Below, piece by piece: positions 17,831 to 23,553 of a DNA stretch of 35,973 nt. Positions within the stretch are counted from its first letter, which is position 1. Each line of letters begins with the position of its first letter. The notes under the pieces are model-generated. The model did no database searches. It was given only the letters and a program-made list of their open reading frames with translations, and was not told the origin of the DNA. The stretch comes from a virus (Duplodnaviria; Heunggongvirae; Uroviricota; Caudoviricetes), in the IMG/VR virus record IMGVR_UViG_3300014890_000016, positions 1-35,973 of that record; one strand, written 5' to 3'. The translations under genes were made by a program, and so were the position numbers.

Positions 17831-18540
17831 CGCGCCCCGTGATTAATGAATCACAGCTCCGGCAGGTTCGTCGCGCCATCAGAGAGGCAGAGCTTCCGCC
17901 AGCAAAGGCCAGAAAGCTGTTGGTTCGTATTGCGAAATACGGCCTGATGCCGGCTGCACGGCGCAATGTGAAAGCACAGCGAACACCGGAGGGGGCAGCC
18001 TGGGCACCACGAAAAAGACCGGATAAAGCCCGCGGCAAGTATAAAAACAAAATGCTGCTGGGACTGCCAAAACTGCTGGCCATCAGGGTTGACAGCGACG
18101 GGAAAAGTGTCCGCCTTTTCTTCAAAAAGGGGGACTACAACACCGGATCTCATGGTGGGGCAGTAGCATGGGTGCAACAGCACGGTGCAACCATCAAAGG
18201 CCGCGCCACAAAACGCCGGGACAACGAAGCCATGCGCACCCGCCCCGCCACACGACGGCAGGCGGAGCGGCTTCTTTCTCTGGGCTTTCGGGCCCCCGTC
18301 GGCGCAGTCAGCAAAAAAACCGGACGCAGGGGGCGCAGAAAGCCCTCCCTGAAATGGATTATGGAAAACATGAGTATGGCGCAGGCCGGGCTGGTGATCA
18401 GCATTCTGAAAGGCGAGCAGAAAAAGCGTGTATGGGAAATAAAAATCCCCTCCCGCGCATTTCTGGGCGCCAGCGATGCTGAATTTGCCCGCATTCTGGA
18501 AGCGCAGTTGCGCAGCCTGCATTACGGCGGCACGAGATAA
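17827..18540 (+). CDS. S: Virion morphogenesis / tail completion protein, gpS-like
   Basis: 237 aa, basic, follows the R-like gene as in P2. Confidence 0.6.
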   Translation: MTRPVINESQLRQVRRAIREAELPPAKARKLLVRIAKYGLMPAARRNVKAQRTPEGAAWAPRKRPDKARGKYKNKMLLGLPKLLAIRVDSDGKSVRLFFKKGDYNTGSHGGAVAWVQQHGATIKGRATKRRDNEAMRTRPATRRQAERLLSLGFRAPVGAVSKKTGRRGRRKPSLKWIMENMSMAQAGLVISILKGEQKKRVWEIKIPSRAFLGASDAEFARILEAQLRSLHYGGTR

Positions 18541-18559
18541 CAAAATCAGGAGACAAATT

Positions 18560-19708
18560 ATGACCTGGCCATCTGTCACGATTGAACAGTACAACACATT
18601 CAGTAGCTCGCCGGACGGCGTGGAAAATACGCTGCTGTTTGTGGGCAATGCACAAAACAACAAAGGTAAGGTTCTGCCGGTCAATGCCAACAGTGATCTG
18701 GATGAATTGCTGGGAGCGAACGCCAGCCCGCTGAAGAATTTCCTTCAGTCCGCACTGACCAATGCCGGACAGAATGCCTTTTTCTATGTTGCCGTTCTGC
18801 CGGAAGCAGGCAGGGGCAAAGAAGCGACGCCAGCCTGCCAGGCATGGCGGAACACCGTACTGGCGGCTCAGGAAACTGTTTCAGTTGAAGGCGCGGTGAT
18901 CACCGAACCAGTCAGCACGAAGGATGACATCAACGCCATACAGGCATTACGTCAGACCATCATCAATAAATATCAGCGCCGCATCTGGTTCATCCTGACC
19001 ATCGCCGCCAACGACAACAGTAAAACCTGGGCGGAATACGTTGCCGAACTGACCACGCTACAGAAAGGCATTGCAGCTCCGCAGGTCATGCTGGTTCCGG
19101 AGATTTTTGGATTTGAACCGGGCGTTCTTGCCGGTCGTCTGTGTAACAGCGCCGTCACCATTGCTGACAGTCCGGCACGTGTGGCAACCGGGGCCCTGTC
19201 CGCACTGAAAACCACAGAACGCCCGAAAGACAGCGCAGGGCAGGCAATTGATCTCGCTACCCTGCAGGCACTGGCAGCCGCCCGCTACAGCGTGCCCATG
19301 TGGTATGCCGACTATGACGGCCTTTACTGGGCCGACGGCGTGACACTTGAGGTTGAAGGCGGGGACTACAACGTCATTGAGCATGTCCGCATTGCTGATA
19401 AGGTGGCGCGCCGCGTACGGCTGATGGCCATCCCCAAAATTGCCGATCGCTCACTGAACAGCACACCAGGCAGCATTGCCGCACATGAAACGCTGTTTGC
19501 CCGCCCGCTGCGTACCATGGCGAAATCCACGCAGATTAACGGTGTCACCTTTCCGGGTGAAGTGAAATCGCCACAAAAAAGCGATGTAACCATCACCTGG
19601 CAGGACGAAAAGACAGTCAGCATCAGCATTGTTGTCCGCCCTTACGCCTGCCCCAAAACCATCAAAGTGGGCATTCAGCTGGACAAATCTCTGGAGGAGA
19701 ACGCATGA
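18560..19708 (+). CDS. Putative tail sheath protein
   Basis: 382 aa with AGGAG Shine-Dalgarno; size and position before a tube-sized ORF in a tail with J/I baseplate genes. Assigned by context. Confidence 0.45.
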   Translation: MTWPSVTIEQYNTFSSSPDGVENTLLFVGNAQNNKGKVLPVNANSDLDELLGANASPLKNFLQSALTNAGQNAFFYVAVLPEAGRGKEATPACQAWRNTVLAAQETVSVEGAVITEPVSTKDDINAIQALRQTIINKYQRRIWFILTIAANDNSKTWAEYVAELTTLQKGIAAPQVMLVPEIFGFEPGVLAGRLCNSAVTIADSPARVATGALSALKTTERPKDSAGQAIDLATLQALAAARYSVPMWYADYDGLYWADGVTLEVEGGDYNVIEHVRIADKVARRVRLMAIPKIADRSLNSTPGSIAAHETLFARPLRTMAKSTQINGVTFPGEVKSPQKSDVTITWQDEKTVSISIVVRPYACPKTIKVGIQLDKSLEENA

Positions 19709-20160
19709 CAACCCGCATTAACGGCATGGCCTTTGATGTTTATGTTGGCGGAACGGATATCCGCGTAAAAAACATTTCGCTGGATATCAGCGACGAAAGC
19801 GCCGTGGCCAAAACCCGTGGCATCCCTGACGGCAAACTGCGCGGTCCCGTCAGTGCCGAAGGTGAAATCGAAATGAGCACCCGCAGTTTTAACCAGCTCG
19901 GGGAAGCGGCCGCTCAGGCGGGATCGTGGCGTGACCTGCCATCAATGGATTTTGTGTTCTACGCCAACACAGGCACCGAAGAAATCCGCGTTGAAGTCTT
20001 CGGGTGTGAGCTGATGCTTTCGAATCTGTTAAGCATTGACACCGAGAGCGCGGATCTGACCACGCACAAAATCAAGTACGTGGTGGCAAGCCCTGACTTT
20101 GTGCGTATCAACGGCGTGCCCGTTCTCTCGGAGAACGACGTGCGCGGGCTGATGGGGTAA
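19705..20160 (+). CDS. Putative tail tube protein
   Basis: 151 aa, ATGA-coupled to the sheath candidate. Assigned by context. Confidence 0.45.
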   Translation: MTTRINGMAFDVYVGGTDIRVKNISLDISDESAVAKTRGIPDGKLRGPVSAEGEIEMSTRSFNQLGEAAAQAGSWRDLPSMDFVFYANTGTEEIRVEVFGCELMLSNLLSIDTESADLTTHKIKYVVASPDFVRINGVPVLSENDVRGLMG

Positions 20161-20163
20161 ACC

Positions 20164-20460
20164 ATGCAGGAGCATGAACGCACCATCATCACCCTGAGCA
20201 TTCTGGGCGGAATCGCTGCCGCAAGTCGGGTGCTGGCTGGCGCAGAGCCGATTACATTGCGGCTGTTTGTGGGCCGAACCCTGCTGGGGAGCGCGCTGGG
20301 GGTTTCTGCCGCCGCCCTGCTGGTTCGTTACCCGAACCTTGACCCACTGGCCATTGCCGGCGCAGGTACCGCAATGGGCGTTGCCGGTTACCAGATTGTG
20401 GAGATCTTCCTGCGCCACATGCGCCGGAAGCTGGACGAAAAAGAGAACAAAGAGGAGTAA
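20164..20460 (+). CDS. Putative holin
   Basis: 98 aa with three hydrophobic segments and a charged C-terminus (RRKLDEKENKEE); upstream of an M15 peptidase. Confidence 0.5.
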   Translation: MQEHERTIITLSILGGIAAASRVLAGAEPITLRLFVGRTLLGSALGVSAAALLVRYPNLDPLAIAGAGTAMGVAGYQIVEIFLRHMRRKLDEKENKEE

Positions 20461-20465
20461 CCGCA

Positions 20466-20573
20466 ATGCAGTCCCGCAGGGATCAGAAAGCCGCTGTCAT
20501 TGTCTGGAAAATTATCCGGGCGTTGTGGCGCTGGTTGCGTAAACCTCAACAACCCCATAAGGAGCAAAAATGA
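20466..20573 (+). CDS. Small cationic amphipathic peptide (35 aa)
   Basis: MQSRRDQKAAVIVWKIIRALWRWLRKPQQPHKEQK; GAGGAG Shine-Dalgarno 8 nt upstream; stop overlaps the endolysin ATG. Confidence 0.35.
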   Translation: MQSRRDQKAAVIVWKIIRALWRWLRKPQQPHKEQK

Positions 20574-20911
20574 AACTCTCCGATAAGCAACAACAATTTA
20601 CCGTCATGATCGGAAAGCTCATCCAGTTTGCCCATCAGCGCGGTTATGGCCTGACGTTCGGTGAGGCGTACCGCACGCCAGAGCAGGCAAAACTCAACGC
20701 ACAAAAGGGATCAGGCATCACCAACAGTCTGCACTGCCAGCGACTGGCGGTGGATTTTAATCTGTTTATTAACGGTGAATACCAGACCCGCACAGAGGCT
20801 TACCGCGAACTGGGCGAGTACTGGGAATCCCTCGGCGGCGCATGGGGCGGTCGTTTTAAAAAACGCCCGGATGGCAATCATTTCAGCCTTGAGCACGACG
20901 GTGTGCGCTGA
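20570..20911 (+). CDS. Endolysin, peptidase M15-type
   Basis: 113 aa; His...Asp...His zinc-site pattern (SLHCQRLAVDF ... DGNHFSLEH) as in T5-type M15 lysins. Confidence 0.7.
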   Translation: MKLSDKQQQFTVMIGKLIQFAHQRGYGLTFGEAYRTPEQAKLNAQKGSGITNSLHCQRLAVDFNLFINGEYQTRTEAYRELGEYWESLGGAWGGRFKKRPDGNHFSLEHDGVR

Positions 20912-20975
20912 TTTTACGCTTAATAAGCCTTCCTGCAGGCTTATTAAGCCCTCTTATTCTTGACATTAACAGGAC

Positions 20976-21269
20976 ATGATGATGAACGATAAAAACACCC
21001 AAATCACCGCAGAGAACGCCATCACTTTACAGGTCGGCGAGCATGAACTGACGTTTATTCCGACGGTGAAAGACTACAACGACCTGCAGAACGACTTCAT
21101 GCCGGACAATAAAATTGCACCACTGAAAAACTACCTGCGCCGCATCGTGATTAAAGAGCACCGCGATCTGCTGAACCAGTTGCTGGAAAAACCGGGAATG
21201 CCGGCCAGTCTGGCAACTGCCGTGAATAACGAGTTCGTGCCGGAAGTGGAAATCACCGTAAAAAAATAA
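20976..21269 (+). CDS. E: Tail assembly chaperone, gpE-like
   Basis: 97-aa ORF immediately upstream of the tape measure gene; ends in an A-rich slippery tract. Confidence 0.55.
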   Translation: MMMNDKNTQITAENAITLQVGEHELTFIPTVKDYNDLQNDFMPDNKIAPLKNYLRRIVIKEHRDLLNQLLEKPGMPASLATAVNNEFVPEVEITVKK

Positions 21270-21457
21270 AAAGCCATCTGGGAGCCATTGATCGCAATGA
21301 CCTTACCAGGATGCTGATCCTGCGCCGCCACTGGCTGCCCGGTGAAGATGATTCACCACAGTCACTGGCTGCTGCCGTCTGGCTGGATAACCACTACTGG
21401 GAAAATATGGGTATCGCCGTCAATAACGGCATTATCCGCGCCTTTAAGGGAACGTAA
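20976..21457 (+). CDS. Predicted E+E' -1 frameshift fusion product
   Basis: Slipping -1 in GTAAAAAAATAA gives a reading frame open to a stop that overlaps the tape measure ATG. Hand-translated. Confidence 0.4.
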
Positions 21458-23553
21458 TGTCACAACAGCGCCTTGAATTACTTCTTGAACTGACAGACCG
21501 CCTGACAAGGCCGTTGCGCGCAGCCGGGCGACAGGTTCAGGGATTTGCTGCAACAAGTCGGGGGGCTTTTCGGGACATTGCTACCGGAGGCGCTGCACTC
21601 TGGGGAGTGGGTGCAGCCATTCAGGGTGCACTGATGCCAGCCATTGAAATGGACAGAGCGCTCGGTGAGGTGAAATCACTGGGCGTCGCAGAGTCCGGAT
21701 TGCGTAAACTCAGCCGCGCCGCTGTTGATTTCACTATGGAATACGGCGGAGCTGCGCAGGATTTTGTGCGTGCTTCTTACGACATCCAGTCAGCCATTGC
21801 CGGATTAACTGACGATGAGCTGTCACGCTTCACCACTGCATCAGCAACAGTGGCAGCAGCAACCAAATCCAGCAGCCAGACCATTACCGCCTACATGGGC
21901 ACCATGTACGGCATCTTTAAAGACCAGGCTGATGCCATAGGAAAAAGTAAATGGGTGGAGCAGATCGCCGGACAAACCGCCACTGCCGTGCAAATGTTTA
22001 AAACAACCGGCGATAACATGTCAGCGGCATTCACCACACTGGGTGCCAGTGCAAAAGCAGCCGGTATTGATGCGGCCGAGCAGTTCGCCGTACTGGGGCA
22101 ACTGCAGGCAACCATGAGTGGCAGCGAGGCTGGTACAAAATATAAATCCTTCCTGGCATCCGTTGGTAAAGCACAGAAAAAGCTGGGGCTTAATTTCGTG
22201 AATAAAGACGGCACGATGAAAAGTGTTGTCGAGATCATGAAACTTATCAGGGGCAAATTTGGTGATCTGTCAAAAGTGGCTGACTCTGATTTGCTGAAAA
22301 GCGCCTTTGGCTCCGATGAGGCTGTGGCCATGATTAAATTGCTCAATGCAGACATTGGCGGACTGGAAAAGAACATCGCCACGCTGGGCAATATCAAAGG
22401 TATGGATAAGGCTGTCGAAATGGCACAAGCCATGGCCGATCCGTGGGAACAGGCCGCTGCGATTATTAACGGCATTCGCATTGAAATTGGCACACAACTG
22501 TTACCCGTTCTGTATCCATTCATCCAGAAAAGCAACGAAGGCGGTAAATCCTTTGTTGCCTGGTTGCGTCTGTATCCAAACATCACACGTGCAATCGGCT
22601 TATTAAGCGCGGCACTTATTGGTGTTGCGGCGGTTGGCGCAACGGTCAATATCGTAATGGGGGTGGCGAAATTTATCTGGGTGGGATTACGCATGGTCTG
22701 GATGGCCGCAATCGCACCACTGAAATTAATCATCTTTCTGTATCGTGCCCTGAAAGTGGTTATGCTGGCGTTCTGTGCTACTGCCCGCATGGTCAGGGCA
22801 TTATATCTGGCGATGAGTATCGCCATGGGGGCGCACAATGTCAGGGCCAAAATTCAGATTGCACTGCTGAAACTGCAACGCATCGGTATGTGGCTTTATT
22901 CTGCCGCACTGGGCGCTGCAGCTGTGGCCATGAATATTTACACCGCTGTTACCGGTGGCGCAGCCGTTGCCACTCAGCTACTTTTCAGCCCGATAACGTT
23001 AATCATCCTGGCACTGGCTGCGCTGGGCGTGGGCATTTATTTTCTGATTACCCGCTGGGATGAGATCAAAGCGGCACTGATGGATACAGCCGCTTTTCAG
23101 TGGGTAACCAGTGTCATAAAAAATATAGCTGTATGGTTCGGCAATACCTGGAAAGGCATTAAAAGCGGCTGGGATGCCGTTATTAATTATTTTTCCACCC
23201 GCTCACCGCTGGAAATATTTCAGGATTATGTCCGTCTGATTAATAAATTATTTTCAGGACTATGGCGCACAATTATCGGTATGTTCAGCTCAGCATTCAG
23301 ATGGATCGCTGACAAGCTGAATATGCTCCCGGGTATAAATATTGATGTACCAGAAATTACAGATAACAGTGAGGGTTCTGTATTAACCGGTGGAAAAGTC
23401 ATTAGCGCCGGGCCAGGTGGCATTGCGGCAAAAATGCAAAATAACAGCGACAGCCAGACCACAATTGATAACTCCCGTCGCGTGGTCAATGTCAATGTGC
23501 AGGATGCATCCCCGGCCCACCTTAATGAATGGATGGAGCTGCATGCATACTGA
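21457..23553 (+). CDS. T: Tail tape measure protein
   Basis: 698 aa; Ala/Gly-rich coiled-coil N-terminal half and hydrophobic segments in the C-terminal half; follows the chaperone pair. Confidence 0.8.
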   Translation: MSQQRLELLLELTDRLTRPLRAAGRQVQGFAATSRGAFRDIATGGAALWGVGAAIQGALMPAIEMDRALGEVKSLGVAESGLRKLSRAAVDFTMEYGGAAQDFVRASYDIQSAIAGLTDDELSRFTTASATVAAATKSSSQTITAYMGTMYGIFKDQADAIGKSKWVEQIAGQTATAVQMFKTTGDNMSAAFTTLGASAKAAGIDAAEQFAVLGQLQATMSGSEAGTKYKSFLASVGKAQKKLGLNFVNKDGTMKSVVEIMKLIRGKFGDLSKVADSDLLKSAFGSDEAVAMIKLLNADIGGLEKNIATLGNIKGMDKAVEMAQAMADPWEQAAAIINGIRIEIGTQLLPVLYPFIQKSNEGGKSFVAWLRLYPNITRAIGLLSAALIGVAAVGATVNIVMGVAKFIWVGLRMVWMAAIAPLKLIIFLYRALKVVMLAFCATARMVRALYLAMSIAMGAHNVRAKIQIALLKLQRIGMWLYSAALGAAAVAMNIYTAVTGGAAVATQLLFSPITLIILALAALGVGIYFLITRWDEIKAALMDTAAFQWVTSVIKNIAVWFGNTWKGIKSGWDAVINYFSTRSPLEIFQDYVRLINKLFSGLWRTIIGMFSSAFRWIADKLNMLPGINIDVPEITDNSEGSVLTGGKVISAGPGGIAAKMQNNSDSQTTIDNSRRVVNVNVQDASPAHLNEWMELHAY

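What the first reader, a model, noticed from the sequence alone, without database searches (positions are those of the whole stretch)
21255..21457. Programmed -1 frameshift site for the tail chaperone
The E-like ORF ends in GTAAAAAAATAA, and the -1 frame from this A-run stays open for about 62 codons to a stop overlapping the tape measure ATG. This matches the conserved E/E' or G/GT arrangement in tailed phages. My hand coordinates are off by 1 nt somewhere in 21270..21457.
Basis: partly seen in the sequence, partly recalled or inferred. Interest (0 to 1): 0.45.

Follow-up and report, generated by a model that had tools for sequence, protein, structure and literature searches.

The report
Tail chaperone programmed -1 frameshift site
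This prophage has the usual slippery site that lets ribosomes occasionally shift back one base at the end of the tail assembly chaperone gene and make a longer fusion protein; the mechanism is well known, but databases annotate the shifted part as a separate gene of unknown function (DUF6890).

Summary
The 97-codon ORF 20976-21269 ends GTA AAA AAA TAA. The heptamer A_AAA_AAA (21260-21266) is in X_XXY_YYZ register. From 21266 the -1 frame runs 63 codons to TAA 21455-21457, which overlaps the tape measure ATG (21457) by one base.

The ORF is a Pfam Phage_TAC_10 tail assembly chaperone, and the -1 extension is Pfam DUF6890. In 98 of 99 sources examined (the window plus related loci: HP1, Vibrio, Aeromonas, Yersinia, Pseudomonas and Rheinheimera phages and prophages, protein identity down to about 35-45%) the extension lies in the -1 frame behind an in-register A_AAA_AAN. 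The A-ending codon before it and the AAA lysine codon never vary at synonymous sites. The 0-frame stop follows immediately except in one Pseudomonas lineage.

Thirteen of 33 relatives have no start codon for the extension, and coding conservation begins at the slip site. No RNA structure or Shine-Dalgarno stimulator is conserved. No record examined annotates the slippage.

Verdict: an unannotated member of the lambda G/GT and P2 E/E+E' class. It is ordinary in kind, but it assigns a role to DUF6890. No fusion protein was observed here.

The parts
20976..21269 (+). Tail assembly chaperone gene, 0 frame (97 aa). The functional start may be the third ATG at 20982 (95 aa).
21260..21266 (+). Slippery heptamer A_AAA_AAA, in X_XXY_YYZ register with the 0 frame.
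   Evidence: Sequence. An in-register A_AAA_AAN is present at the same alignment position in 98 of 99 sources examined. In 34 non-redundant loci the preceding codon is NTA in 34/34 and the lysine codon is AAA in 34/34, while neighbouring synonymous sites vary.
21267..21269 (+). 0-frame stop TAA directly 3' of the heptamer; a candidate 'shifty stop' stimulator.
   Evidence: The stop follows the heptamer immediately in 33 of 34 non-redundant loci (TAA, TGA or TAG). The exception is the Pseudomonas phi3/PfPro lineage, which has A_AAA_AAG and the stop 21 nt downstream.
21266..21457 (+). -1 frame extension: 63 codons plus TAA. It is the counterpart of lambda T and P2 E'. Public annotation calls it a separate 48-aa 'DUF6890 family protein' starting at ATG 21311.
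   Evidence: Pfam PF21830 DUF6890, E=1.6e-22. PHROG 7050. Codon-periodic variability in the -1 frame already between the slip site and ATG 21311 (column entropy 0.91/0.89/1.65 by codon position). 13 of 33 relatives have no ATG/GTG/TTG in the first 25 extension codons. All 40 representative homologues among 1.84 billion proteins are 28-67 aa with ragged N-termini, and none is fused in frame.
21457..23553 (+). Tape measure protein gene. Its ATG overlaps the stop of the -1 extension by one base (TAATG).
   Evidence: Pfam PhageMin_Tail and PHROG 28 'tail length tape measure protein'. Coordinates.
18476..20911 (+). Upstream context: tail sheath (18476-19708), tail tube (19705-20160), holin (20164-20460) and M15 endolysin (20570-20911). 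This is the HP1-type order, with lysis genes between the tube and the chaperone.
   Evidence: Pfam DUF2586, Phage_HP1_Orf24, Phage_holin_3_2 and Peptidase_M15_4; PHROG tail sheath, tail protein, holin and endolysin. The HP1 record has the same order.

Best explanation
This is a programmed -1 ribosomal frameshift site at the 3' end of the tail assembly chaperone gene of an HP1-like (Peduoviridae) prophage. Most ribosomes read GTA AAA AAA and terminate at TAA 21267-69, producing the 95-97 aa chaperone. A minority slip back one base on A_AAA_AAA: the lysine tRNAs re-pair with AAA in the -1 frame. These ribosomes continue with ATA AAA AGC... for 63 codons and produce a 158-160 aa fusion of the chaperone with the DUF6890 domain. 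That fusion terminates at the TAATG overlap with the tape measure gene. By analogy with lambda gpG/gpGT and P2 gpE/gpE+E', the shared N-terminal part would coat the tape measure protein. The rarer C-terminal domain would recruit the tail tube protein, so the slip frequency would set a fixed low ratio of fusion to chaperone, and neither protein would end up in the virion. What the sequence shows directly: the heptamer, its register, the open -1 frame, the domain content of both frames, the absence of a conserved start, and conservation across relatives. What is inferred: that ribosomes do slip here, how often, the roles of the two parts, and that the stop codon directly after the heptamer (a slowly decoded A-site codon) raises slippage in place of an RNA structure.
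Against: No protein-level evidence exists here. No conserved downstream RNA structure was found: RNAalifold predicted 0 pairs on 33 sequences, and a candidate 5-bp hairpin was only 53% paired and not above the controls. The window's downstream 32 nt fold no better than the local background, at the 60th percentile. No conserved Shine-Dalgarno-like stimulator lies upstream. Reporter values for these bare heptamers in E. coli are 0.2-0.4%. That is about ten-fold below the lambda ratio of roughly 1:30, and P2-type efficiencies are higher still, so the level may be very low unless the adjacent stop or something unseen stimulates it. The stimulatory role of the stop is inferred only from its conservation. 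Part of the comparative set was retrieved with a peptide pattern ending in VK[KN], which favours that amino-acid motif but not the codon choice. Fourteen tblastn- or megablast-derived records do not have this bias, and all show the site.
Confidence: 0.85

Rival explanations
1. There are two independent genes, as RefSeq annotates. The chaperone ends at 21269, and a separate 48-aa DUF6890 protein starts at ATG 21311. No frameshift occurs.
For: RefSeq/PGAP annotates exactly this in the 95%-identical E. coli prophages. Several phage records list a small stand-alone ORF here. The window does have an ATG at 21311.
Against: 13 of 33 non-redundant relatives have no ATG/GTG/TTG in the first 25 codons of the extension, and where starts exist their positions differ. 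Conservation and codon periodicity in the -1 frame extend upstream of 21311, back to the slip site. The only purine-rich stretch before ATG 21311 (CCAGG) abuts the ATG with no spacer. Database ORF calls have ragged N-termini, beginning at query positions 6-34. This model does not explain the fixed synonymous sites of the heptamer. The same stand-alone annotation is common for P2 E', which is recorded as a frameshift extension.
Confidence: 0.04
2. The mechanism is transcriptional slippage, not ribosomal slippage. RNA polymerase adds one A in the A7 run, giving an mRNA in which ordinary translation reads through into the DUF6890 frame. In this window the product would be identical.
For: An extra A gives GTA AAA AAA ATA AAA AGC, the same protein as a -1 ribosomal shift (reasoned). 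Sharma et al. note that AAAAAAA is under-represented in all three frames in E. coli, possibly because of transcriptional slippage. The fixed A in the preceding NTA codon also lengthens the run.
Against: 24 of 34 non-redundant relatives have only A6 followed by C (A_AAA_AAC) and 1 has A6G. From my own knowledge of the field, bacterial RNA polymerase slips efficiently on runs of about 9 or more, so selection for this mechanism would be expected to favour longer runs. The homologous lambda and P2 events are treated in the literature as ribosomal.
Confidence: 0.08
3. The mechanism is termination-reinitiation. Ribosomes terminate at TAA 21267-69 and restart nearby in the -1 frame, giving a free 63-aa peptide rather than a fusion. 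This would also explain why the stop is always adjacent.
For: The stop directly abuts the start of the conserved -1 coding region in 33/34 lineages.
Against: The first -1 codon is ATA, CTA, CTG or GCG in different relatives, so no conserved initiator exists. In the Pseudomonas lineage the conserved extension begins at the heptamer, 21 nt before the stop. This model does not need the heptamer, yet the heptamer is invariant.
Confidence: 0.02
4. The -1 ORF is a chance open frame or a decayed remnant with no function.
For: Long open -1 frames after stops are common in this window: 41 of 130 ORFs.
Against: The extension hits Pfam DUF6890 at 1.6e-22. It is conserved with codon periodicity at 35-50% protein identity across many genera.
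Confidence: 0.01

Closest known systems
Bacteriophage P2 gpE / gpE+E' (-1 frameshift in the FETUD tail operon; Christie et al. 2002, cited through PMC3091744)
   Same: Both phages belong to the family Peduoviridae. A chaperone ORF of about 90 aa lies just before the tape measure gene. A -1 frame extension of about 55-65 aa has no start of its own, and its end overlaps the tape measure start. No downstream RNA structure is found. Sizes are P2 91/142 aa and here 97/160 aa.
   Different: The slip sequence is T_TTT_TTG in P2, 20 nt before the E stop; here it is A_AAA_AAA directly followed by the stop. The proteins belong to different Pfam families (Phage_TAC_7 plus Phage_P2_GpE in P2; Phage_TAC_10 plus DUF6890 here), and profile comparison finds no significant similarity. 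Here lysis genes sit between the tube gene and the chaperone, as in HP1.
Bacteriophage lambda gpG / gpGT (Levin et al. 1993; Xu et al. 2004, 2013, 2014, as summarised in PMC5009743)
   Same: The logic is the same: a chaperone plus a low-frequency -1 frameshift fusion, encoded between the major tail gene and the tape measure gene. The ratio is fixed by slippage, and neither protein is in the virion.
   Different: Lambda is a siphovirus that uses G_GGA_AAG inside an overlap. No sequence similarity was detected here. The roles of the two parts (binding the tape measure protein and the tube protein) are carried over by analogy, not tested.
Haemophilus phage HP1 orf26 and the unannotated frame before orf27 (also HP2, Vibrio, Aeromonas phiO18P, Yersinia vB_YenM_324, Cronobacter ESSI-2, Pseudomonas phi3)
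   Same: These are true homologues (37-51% identity over both parts) with the same gene order and an in-register A_AAA_AAN at the same aligned position.
   Different: Most use A_AAA_AAC rather than A_AAA_AAA. The Pseudomonas lineage uses A_AAA_AAG with the stop 21 nt further on. None of the 14 records inspected annotates a joined CDS.
IS1 / IS3-family and dnaX -1 frameshift sites on A_AAA_AAN
   Same: They use the same slippery heptamers and the same shift-prone lysine tRNA. IS1 uses A_AAA_AAC with no established stimulator.
   Different: Most IS3-family and dnaX sites have a downstream stem-loop or pseudoknot and/or an upstream Shine-Dalgarno element. None is conserved here.

Membership tests
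Tail assembly chaperone pair with a programmed -1 frameshift (lambda G/GT, P2 E/E+E' class; Xu et al. 2004) | The gene lies between the major tail (tube) gene and the tape measure gene. | tested here: met
   Tube 19705-20160, chaperone 20976-21269, tape measure 21457-23553. Holin and endolysin are interposed, as in HP1.
Tail assembly chaperone pair with a programmed -1 frameshift (lambda G/GT, P2 E/E+E' class; Xu et al. 2004) | A second ORF overlaps the 3' end in the -1 frame and has no conserved initiation site of its own. | tested here: met
   The -1 frame is open 21230-21454. 13/33 relatives have no start codon in the first 25 extension codons, and coding periodicity begins at the slip site.
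Tail assembly chaperone pair with a programmed -1 frameshift (lambda G/GT, P2 E/E+E' class; Xu et al. 2004) | A slippery X_XXY_YYZ heptamer lies in 0-frame register within the overlap. | tested here: met
   A_AAA_AAA at 21260-21266. It is a measured -1 shifter in E. coli.
Tail assembly chaperone pair with a programmed -1 frameshift (lambda G/GT, P2 E/E+E' class; Xu et al. 2004) | The two-frame arrangement and the slip site are conserved in diverged relatives. | tested here: met
   98 of 99 sources. In 34 non-redundant loci the heptamer's synonymous sites are invariant.
Tail assembly chaperone pair with a programmed -1 frameshift (lambda G/GT, P2 E/E+E' class; Xu et al. 2004) | The fusion protein is made at a low fixed ratio and is required for tail assembly. 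| not testable with these tools
   This needs a western blot, mass spectrometry or genetics.
Pfam Phage_TAC_10 (PF10963) | Score above the family's gathering threshold. | tested here: met
   87 bits against a cutoff of 25.7, covering the full profile 1-82.
Pfam DUF6890 (PF21830) | Score above the family's gathering threshold. | tested here: met
   79.4 bits against a cutoff of 23.6, profile 1-44, on the -1 frame extension.
P2 gpE / gpE' protein families (Phage_TAC_7 PF10109; Phage_P2_GpE PF06528) | Detectable sequence or profile similarity to P2 E+E'. | tested here: not met
   There was no Pfam hit even at E up to 10. hhalign probability was 0.3% (5-sequence fusion profile) and 0.24% (55-sequence T-domain profile against a profile of P2 E' homologues). 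P2 E+E' itself hits PF10109 and PF06528.
Tail assembly chaperone fold (e.g. HK97 chaperone, PDB 2ob9) | Structural similarity of the 0-frame protein to a solved chaperone. | tested here: inconclusive
Stimulated bacterial -1 frameshift signals (dnaX, IS911, IS3 type) | A downstream stem-loop or pseudoknot 5-9 nt after the heptamer. | tested here: not met
   RNAalifold found 0 pairs. The candidate hairpin was not supported. The window's downstream fold is at the 60th percentile of the local background. z = -1.1 for 21267-21350.
Stimulated bacterial -1 frameshift signals (dnaX, IS911, IS3 type) | A Shine-Dalgarno-like element 6-17 nt upstream. | tested here: not met
   Only a weak GGA derived from Leu-Glu codons is present (about -3 to -4 kcal/mol). 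It is absent in HP1 and in a Vibrio relative.
Transcriptional slippage sites | A long homopolymer run (about 9 or more A/T for efficient slippage by bacterial RNA polymerase; own knowledge). | tested here: not met
   The run is A7 here and A6 in 25 of 34 non-redundant relatives.

The most novel reading that the evidence does not exclude
In this HP1-type lineage the frameshift signal may be a minimal 'heptamer plus shifty stop'. In that reading, the 0-frame stop codon that directly follows A_AAA_AA[A/C] in 33 of 34 lineages is itself the stimulator, replacing an RNA structure. The chaperone-to-fusion ratio would then depend on release-factor activity and so on host physiology. The one lineage that moved the stop 21 nt away also switched to A_AAA_AAG, a heptamer that responds much more strongly to stimulators in E. 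coli reporters. That fits this reading, but it is a single evolutionary event. The Asn codon in the heptamer is always AAC and never AAT, although T would keep Leu in the -1 frame. This also points to selection on the signal itself.
Probability: 0.35. Interest if true: 0.45.

Novelty: new member of a known kind. Interest (0 to 1): 0.3.

Why it matters
Frameshifting in tail chaperone genes is textbook phage biology, so the mechanism is not new. The practical value is in annotation. In every one of the 14 public records inspected, including RefSeq E. coli genomes and the HP1 reference genome, the slippage is not annotated. The shifted part is either missing or listed as a separate small protein, and Pfam holds it as DUF6890, 'unknown function'. 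The analysis here indicates that DUF6890 is the C-terminal domain of the frameshift product of Phage_TAC_10 chaperones, which gives that family a role. It also provides a simple rule for correcting many Peduoviridae (HP1-group) genome records: A_AAA_AAN, usually followed directly by the stop. For people who study recoding, the invariably adjacent stop codon with no RNA structure is a clean natural test case for stop-stimulated -1 slippage.

Tried and rejected
1. A conserved downstream stimulatory RNA structure. The single-sequence folds were z -1.1 for 21267-21350, and z -3.3 only for a 171-nt long-range fold. RNAalifold on 33 sequences found 0 pairs. An explicit 5-bp hairpin seen by eye in some relatives was 53% paired and not above the shuffles. 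Per-locus fold percentiles had a median of 0.40. Rejected.

2. An upstream Shine-Dalgarno stimulator. Only a weak, non-conserved GGA was found. Rejected.

3. Homology of DUF6890 to the P2 E' domain. A short 'HW.P.E' match at equivalent positions looked suggestive. hhalign gave a probability below 1% with both shallow and deeper profiles, and Pfam at E up to 10 gave no PF06528 hit. Not supported.

4. Natural in-frame fusions or annotated fusions. None was found among 5.8 billion clusters within the limits of the word index, or among 1.84 billion representatives.

5. A diverse P2 E+E' set from viral contigs. Only 99-100% identical copies came back, which was of no use for profile building.

6. 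Structure prediction of the fusion. Only the 0-frame part was modelled.

7. Literature. Neither the Christie 2002 paper nor Xu 2004 is held. No accessible paper mentions DUF6890, PF10963 or an HP1-group frameshift. I therefore could not check whether HP1 was already listed in those papers. From memory I think P2-related phages including HP1 were discussed there.

The single-protein query gave only 5 loci.

Full report
**Observation**

- The ORF 20976..21269 (97 aa) ends GTA AAA AAA TAA.
- The seven-A run is 21260-21266 and lies in X_XXY_YYZ register with the 0 frame (A_AAA_AAA).
- The -1 frame is open from 21230. From position 21266 it runs 63 codons to TAA 21455-21457.
- The last base of that stop is the first base of the tape measure ATG (TAATG; gene 21457..23553).
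- The conceptual fusion is 160 aa. The coordinates are internally consistent, so the suspected 1-nt error is immaterial.

An open -1 frame of this length after a stop is not rare in this compact genome: 41 of 130 long ORFs have one. That feature alone proves nothing.

**What the two frames encode**

The 0-frame protein is a full-length match to Pfam Phage_TAC_10 (1e-24). The -1 extension is a full-length match to Pfam DUF6890 (1.6e-22). PHROGs gives two separate families of 'unknown function'.

The neighbours are tail sheath (DUF2586), tail tube (HP1 Orf24 family), holin and M15 endolysin upstream. Downstream are the tape measure, DUF2590 and baseplate J genes. This is the tail-lysis-tail order of Haemophilus phage HP1.

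**Public annotation**

The region is 95% identical to prophages in 41 complete E. coli genomes. RefSeq annotates two separate genes there: 'putative phage tail assembly chaperone' and a 48-aa 'DUF6890 family protein'.

In the 13 phage records inspected, the second frame is either unannotated or a stand-alone small ORF, and none has a joined CDS. These records are HP1, Yersinia vB_YenM_324, Vibrio yong1, L9-1 and PV94, Pseudomonas phi3 and PfPro, Pseudoalteromonas PY3, Aeromonas P05B and phiO18P, Cronobacter ESSI-2 and Salmonella SW3. In ESSI-2 not even the chaperone gene is listed over the matched region.

**Comparative test**

tblastn with the conceptual fusion finds 76 phage records, and all 40 rows listed match in two pieces. 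I retrieved 80 viral contigs and analysed them together with 5 annotated loci and the window.
- In 85 of 86 sources the second part is in the -1 frame relative to the first, and an A_AAA_AA[A/C/G] heptamer sits in 0-frame register at the same place.
- Thirteen further loci all show the same. They are E. albertii, four Rheinheimera genomes and eight phage records found by tblastn, and so are free of the peptide pattern used.
- After reduction to 34 loci below 90% DNA identity, the heptamer is AAAAAAC in 24, AAAAAAA in 9 and AAAAAAG in 1.
- In those 34 loci the preceding codon is always NTA (GTA or CTA) and the lysine codon is always AAA. Neighbouring codons vary freely at synonymous sites. This is constraint on the nucleotides, not only on the protein.
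- In 33 of 34 the 0-frame stop (TAA, TGA or TAG) follows the heptamer directly. The exception is the Pseudomonas phi3/PfPro lineage, with A_AAA_AAG and the stop 21 nt later.

**Independent initiation is not supported**

- Fusion proteins from five genera align without gaps across the junction.
- Between the slip site and the window's annotated ATG (21311), column variability already has a codon pattern in the -1 frame (entropy 0.91/0.89/1.65), like the annotated part (0.90/0.60/1.57).
- 13 of 33 relatives have no ATG, GTG or TTG in the first 25 extension codons.
- A full HMMER scan of 1.84 billion representative proteins with the 63-aa extension found 40 relatives. All are 28-67 aa with ragged N-termini, and none is embedded in a longer protein.
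- A search with the fusion found no full-length fusion. It found only a Salmonella deletion derivative.

The same stand-alone annotation is common for P2 E' ('GpE family phage tail protein'), which the P2 record annotates as a frameshift extension.

**Signal and likely mechanism**

No downstream RNA structure is conserved, and no Shine-Dalgarno-like element is conserved upstream. The conserved signal is therefore the heptamer plus the adjacent stop.

E. coli reporter values, from Sharma et al. 2014 (PMC4066793, Table S3):

| Heptamer | No stimulator | With a strong pseudoknot |
|---|---|---|
| A_AAA_AAA | 0.41% | 24.8% |
| A_AAA_AAC | 0.16% | 0.74% |
| A_AAA_AAG | 0.29% | 39% |

Bare-heptamer levels are lower than the roughly 1:30 ratio reported for lambda G:GT, and P2-type efficiencies are higher still (PMC5009743).

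I infer that the adjacent stop, a slowly decoded A-site codon, gives the P-site lysine or asparagine tRNA time to slip. This is the 'shifty stop' idea. The review mentions it for +1 cases, and from my own knowledge it was also described for -1 shifts by Weiss et al. 1987. This step is untested.

Transcriptional slippage would give the same protein in this window. It is less likely as the main route, because most relatives have only six A's.

**Relation to known systems**

The arrangement works like P2 E/E+E' and lambda G/GT.
- P2 uses T_TTT_TTG, 20 nt before the E stop, and makes 91 and 142 aa products. E' ends in an overlap with the T gene.
- The window's proteins are not detectable sequence relatives of P2 E or E'.
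- The window belongs to the functional class and to Pfam Phage_TAC_10/DUF6890, but not to the P2 gpE families.

The roles of the two parts are taken from lambda by analogy: the N-terminal part on the tape measure protein, and the extension recruiting the tube protein.

**Verdict**

It is an unannotated member of a well-known class, so its novelty is low.

Two points have some value. DUF6890 can be reassigned from 'unknown function' to the frameshift-encoded domain of HP1-type tail assembly chaperones. The signal is unusually minimal, a heptamer directly followed by a stop, which is testable.

I could not read Christie et al. 2002 or Xu et al. 2004. I therefore cannot exclude that the HP1 site was already noted there.

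Noticed in passing
L018 (IMGVR_UViG_2551306561_000001) 1740-1935: This is the only exception among 99 sources. A 1-nt insertion 12 nt after the stop (GCGCGACGCC against GCGCGCGCC in L027) puts the DUF6890 part in the 0 frame behind TGA, so neither a -1 shift nor normal reading gives the fusion. It is probably a sequencing error or a decaying prophage.
   Followed up: partly
P0004 (Salmonella enterica serovar Montevideo, 96 aa): This protein joins the N-terminal half of the chaperone in frame to the C-terminal part of DUF6890, at the repeated motif LRR (…KNYLRR|HWLPGEDD…). It looks like a deletion between two short repeats in a defective prophage.
   Followed up: partly
L005 1758-1788 and L172 540-570 (Pseudomonas phages phi3 and UFJF_PfPro): This is the only lineage where the 0-frame stop is not adjacent to the heptamer (it is 21 nt downstream). 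It is also the only one using A_AAA_AAG. This may be a trade between heptamer strength and stop proximity, but it rests on a single evolutionary event.
   Followed up: partly
window 21264-21266 and the aligned position in the 34 non-redundant loci: When the last heptamer codon is Asn it is always AAC (24/24) and never AAT. AAT TAA would still give Leu (TTA) in the -1 frame, so protein coding in either frame does not explain this.
   Followed up: no
window 20918-20949: A perfect 13-bp inverted repeat (GCTTAATAAGCCT / AGGCTTATTAAGC, 6-nt loop) with a T-rich tail lies between the endolysin stop and the chaperone start, followed by TTGACA at 20961-20966. The scan flags it as terminator-like. It is identical in close relatives. 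In the 82%-identical L017 a different sequence forms an equivalent hairpin. It may be an attenuator or an mRNA-stability element separating the lysis genes from the tail genes.
   Followed up: partly
window 20976-20984: There are three consecutive ATG codons at the chaperone start. The AGGA at 20971-20974 is best spaced for the third (20982), and most database homologues begin MNDK…, which corresponds to that third ATG. The protein is therefore probably 95 aa, and the fusion 158 aa.
   Followed up: partly
window 21443-21457: The conserved C-terminal …AFKG of the extension is encoded by GCC TTT AAG GGA. The AAGGGA lies about 7 nt before the tape measure ATG, so these codons may also serve as its ribosome binding site.
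   Followed up: no
P0058-P0118: The P2 E' domain, recorded as a frameshift extension in the P2 reference genome, is annotated in many RefSeq genomes as a stand-alone 35-52 aa 'GpE family phage tail protein'. The annotation gap seen for DUF6890 is therefore general for tail chaperone frameshifts.
   Followed up: no
window 20911-20976 compared with L003 992-1481: Relatives such as Yersinia vB_YenM_324, HP1 and phiO18P carry spanin genes between the endolysin and the chaperone. The window has only a 64-nt gap there, so its spanin genes, if any, are elsewhere or missing.
   Followed up: no
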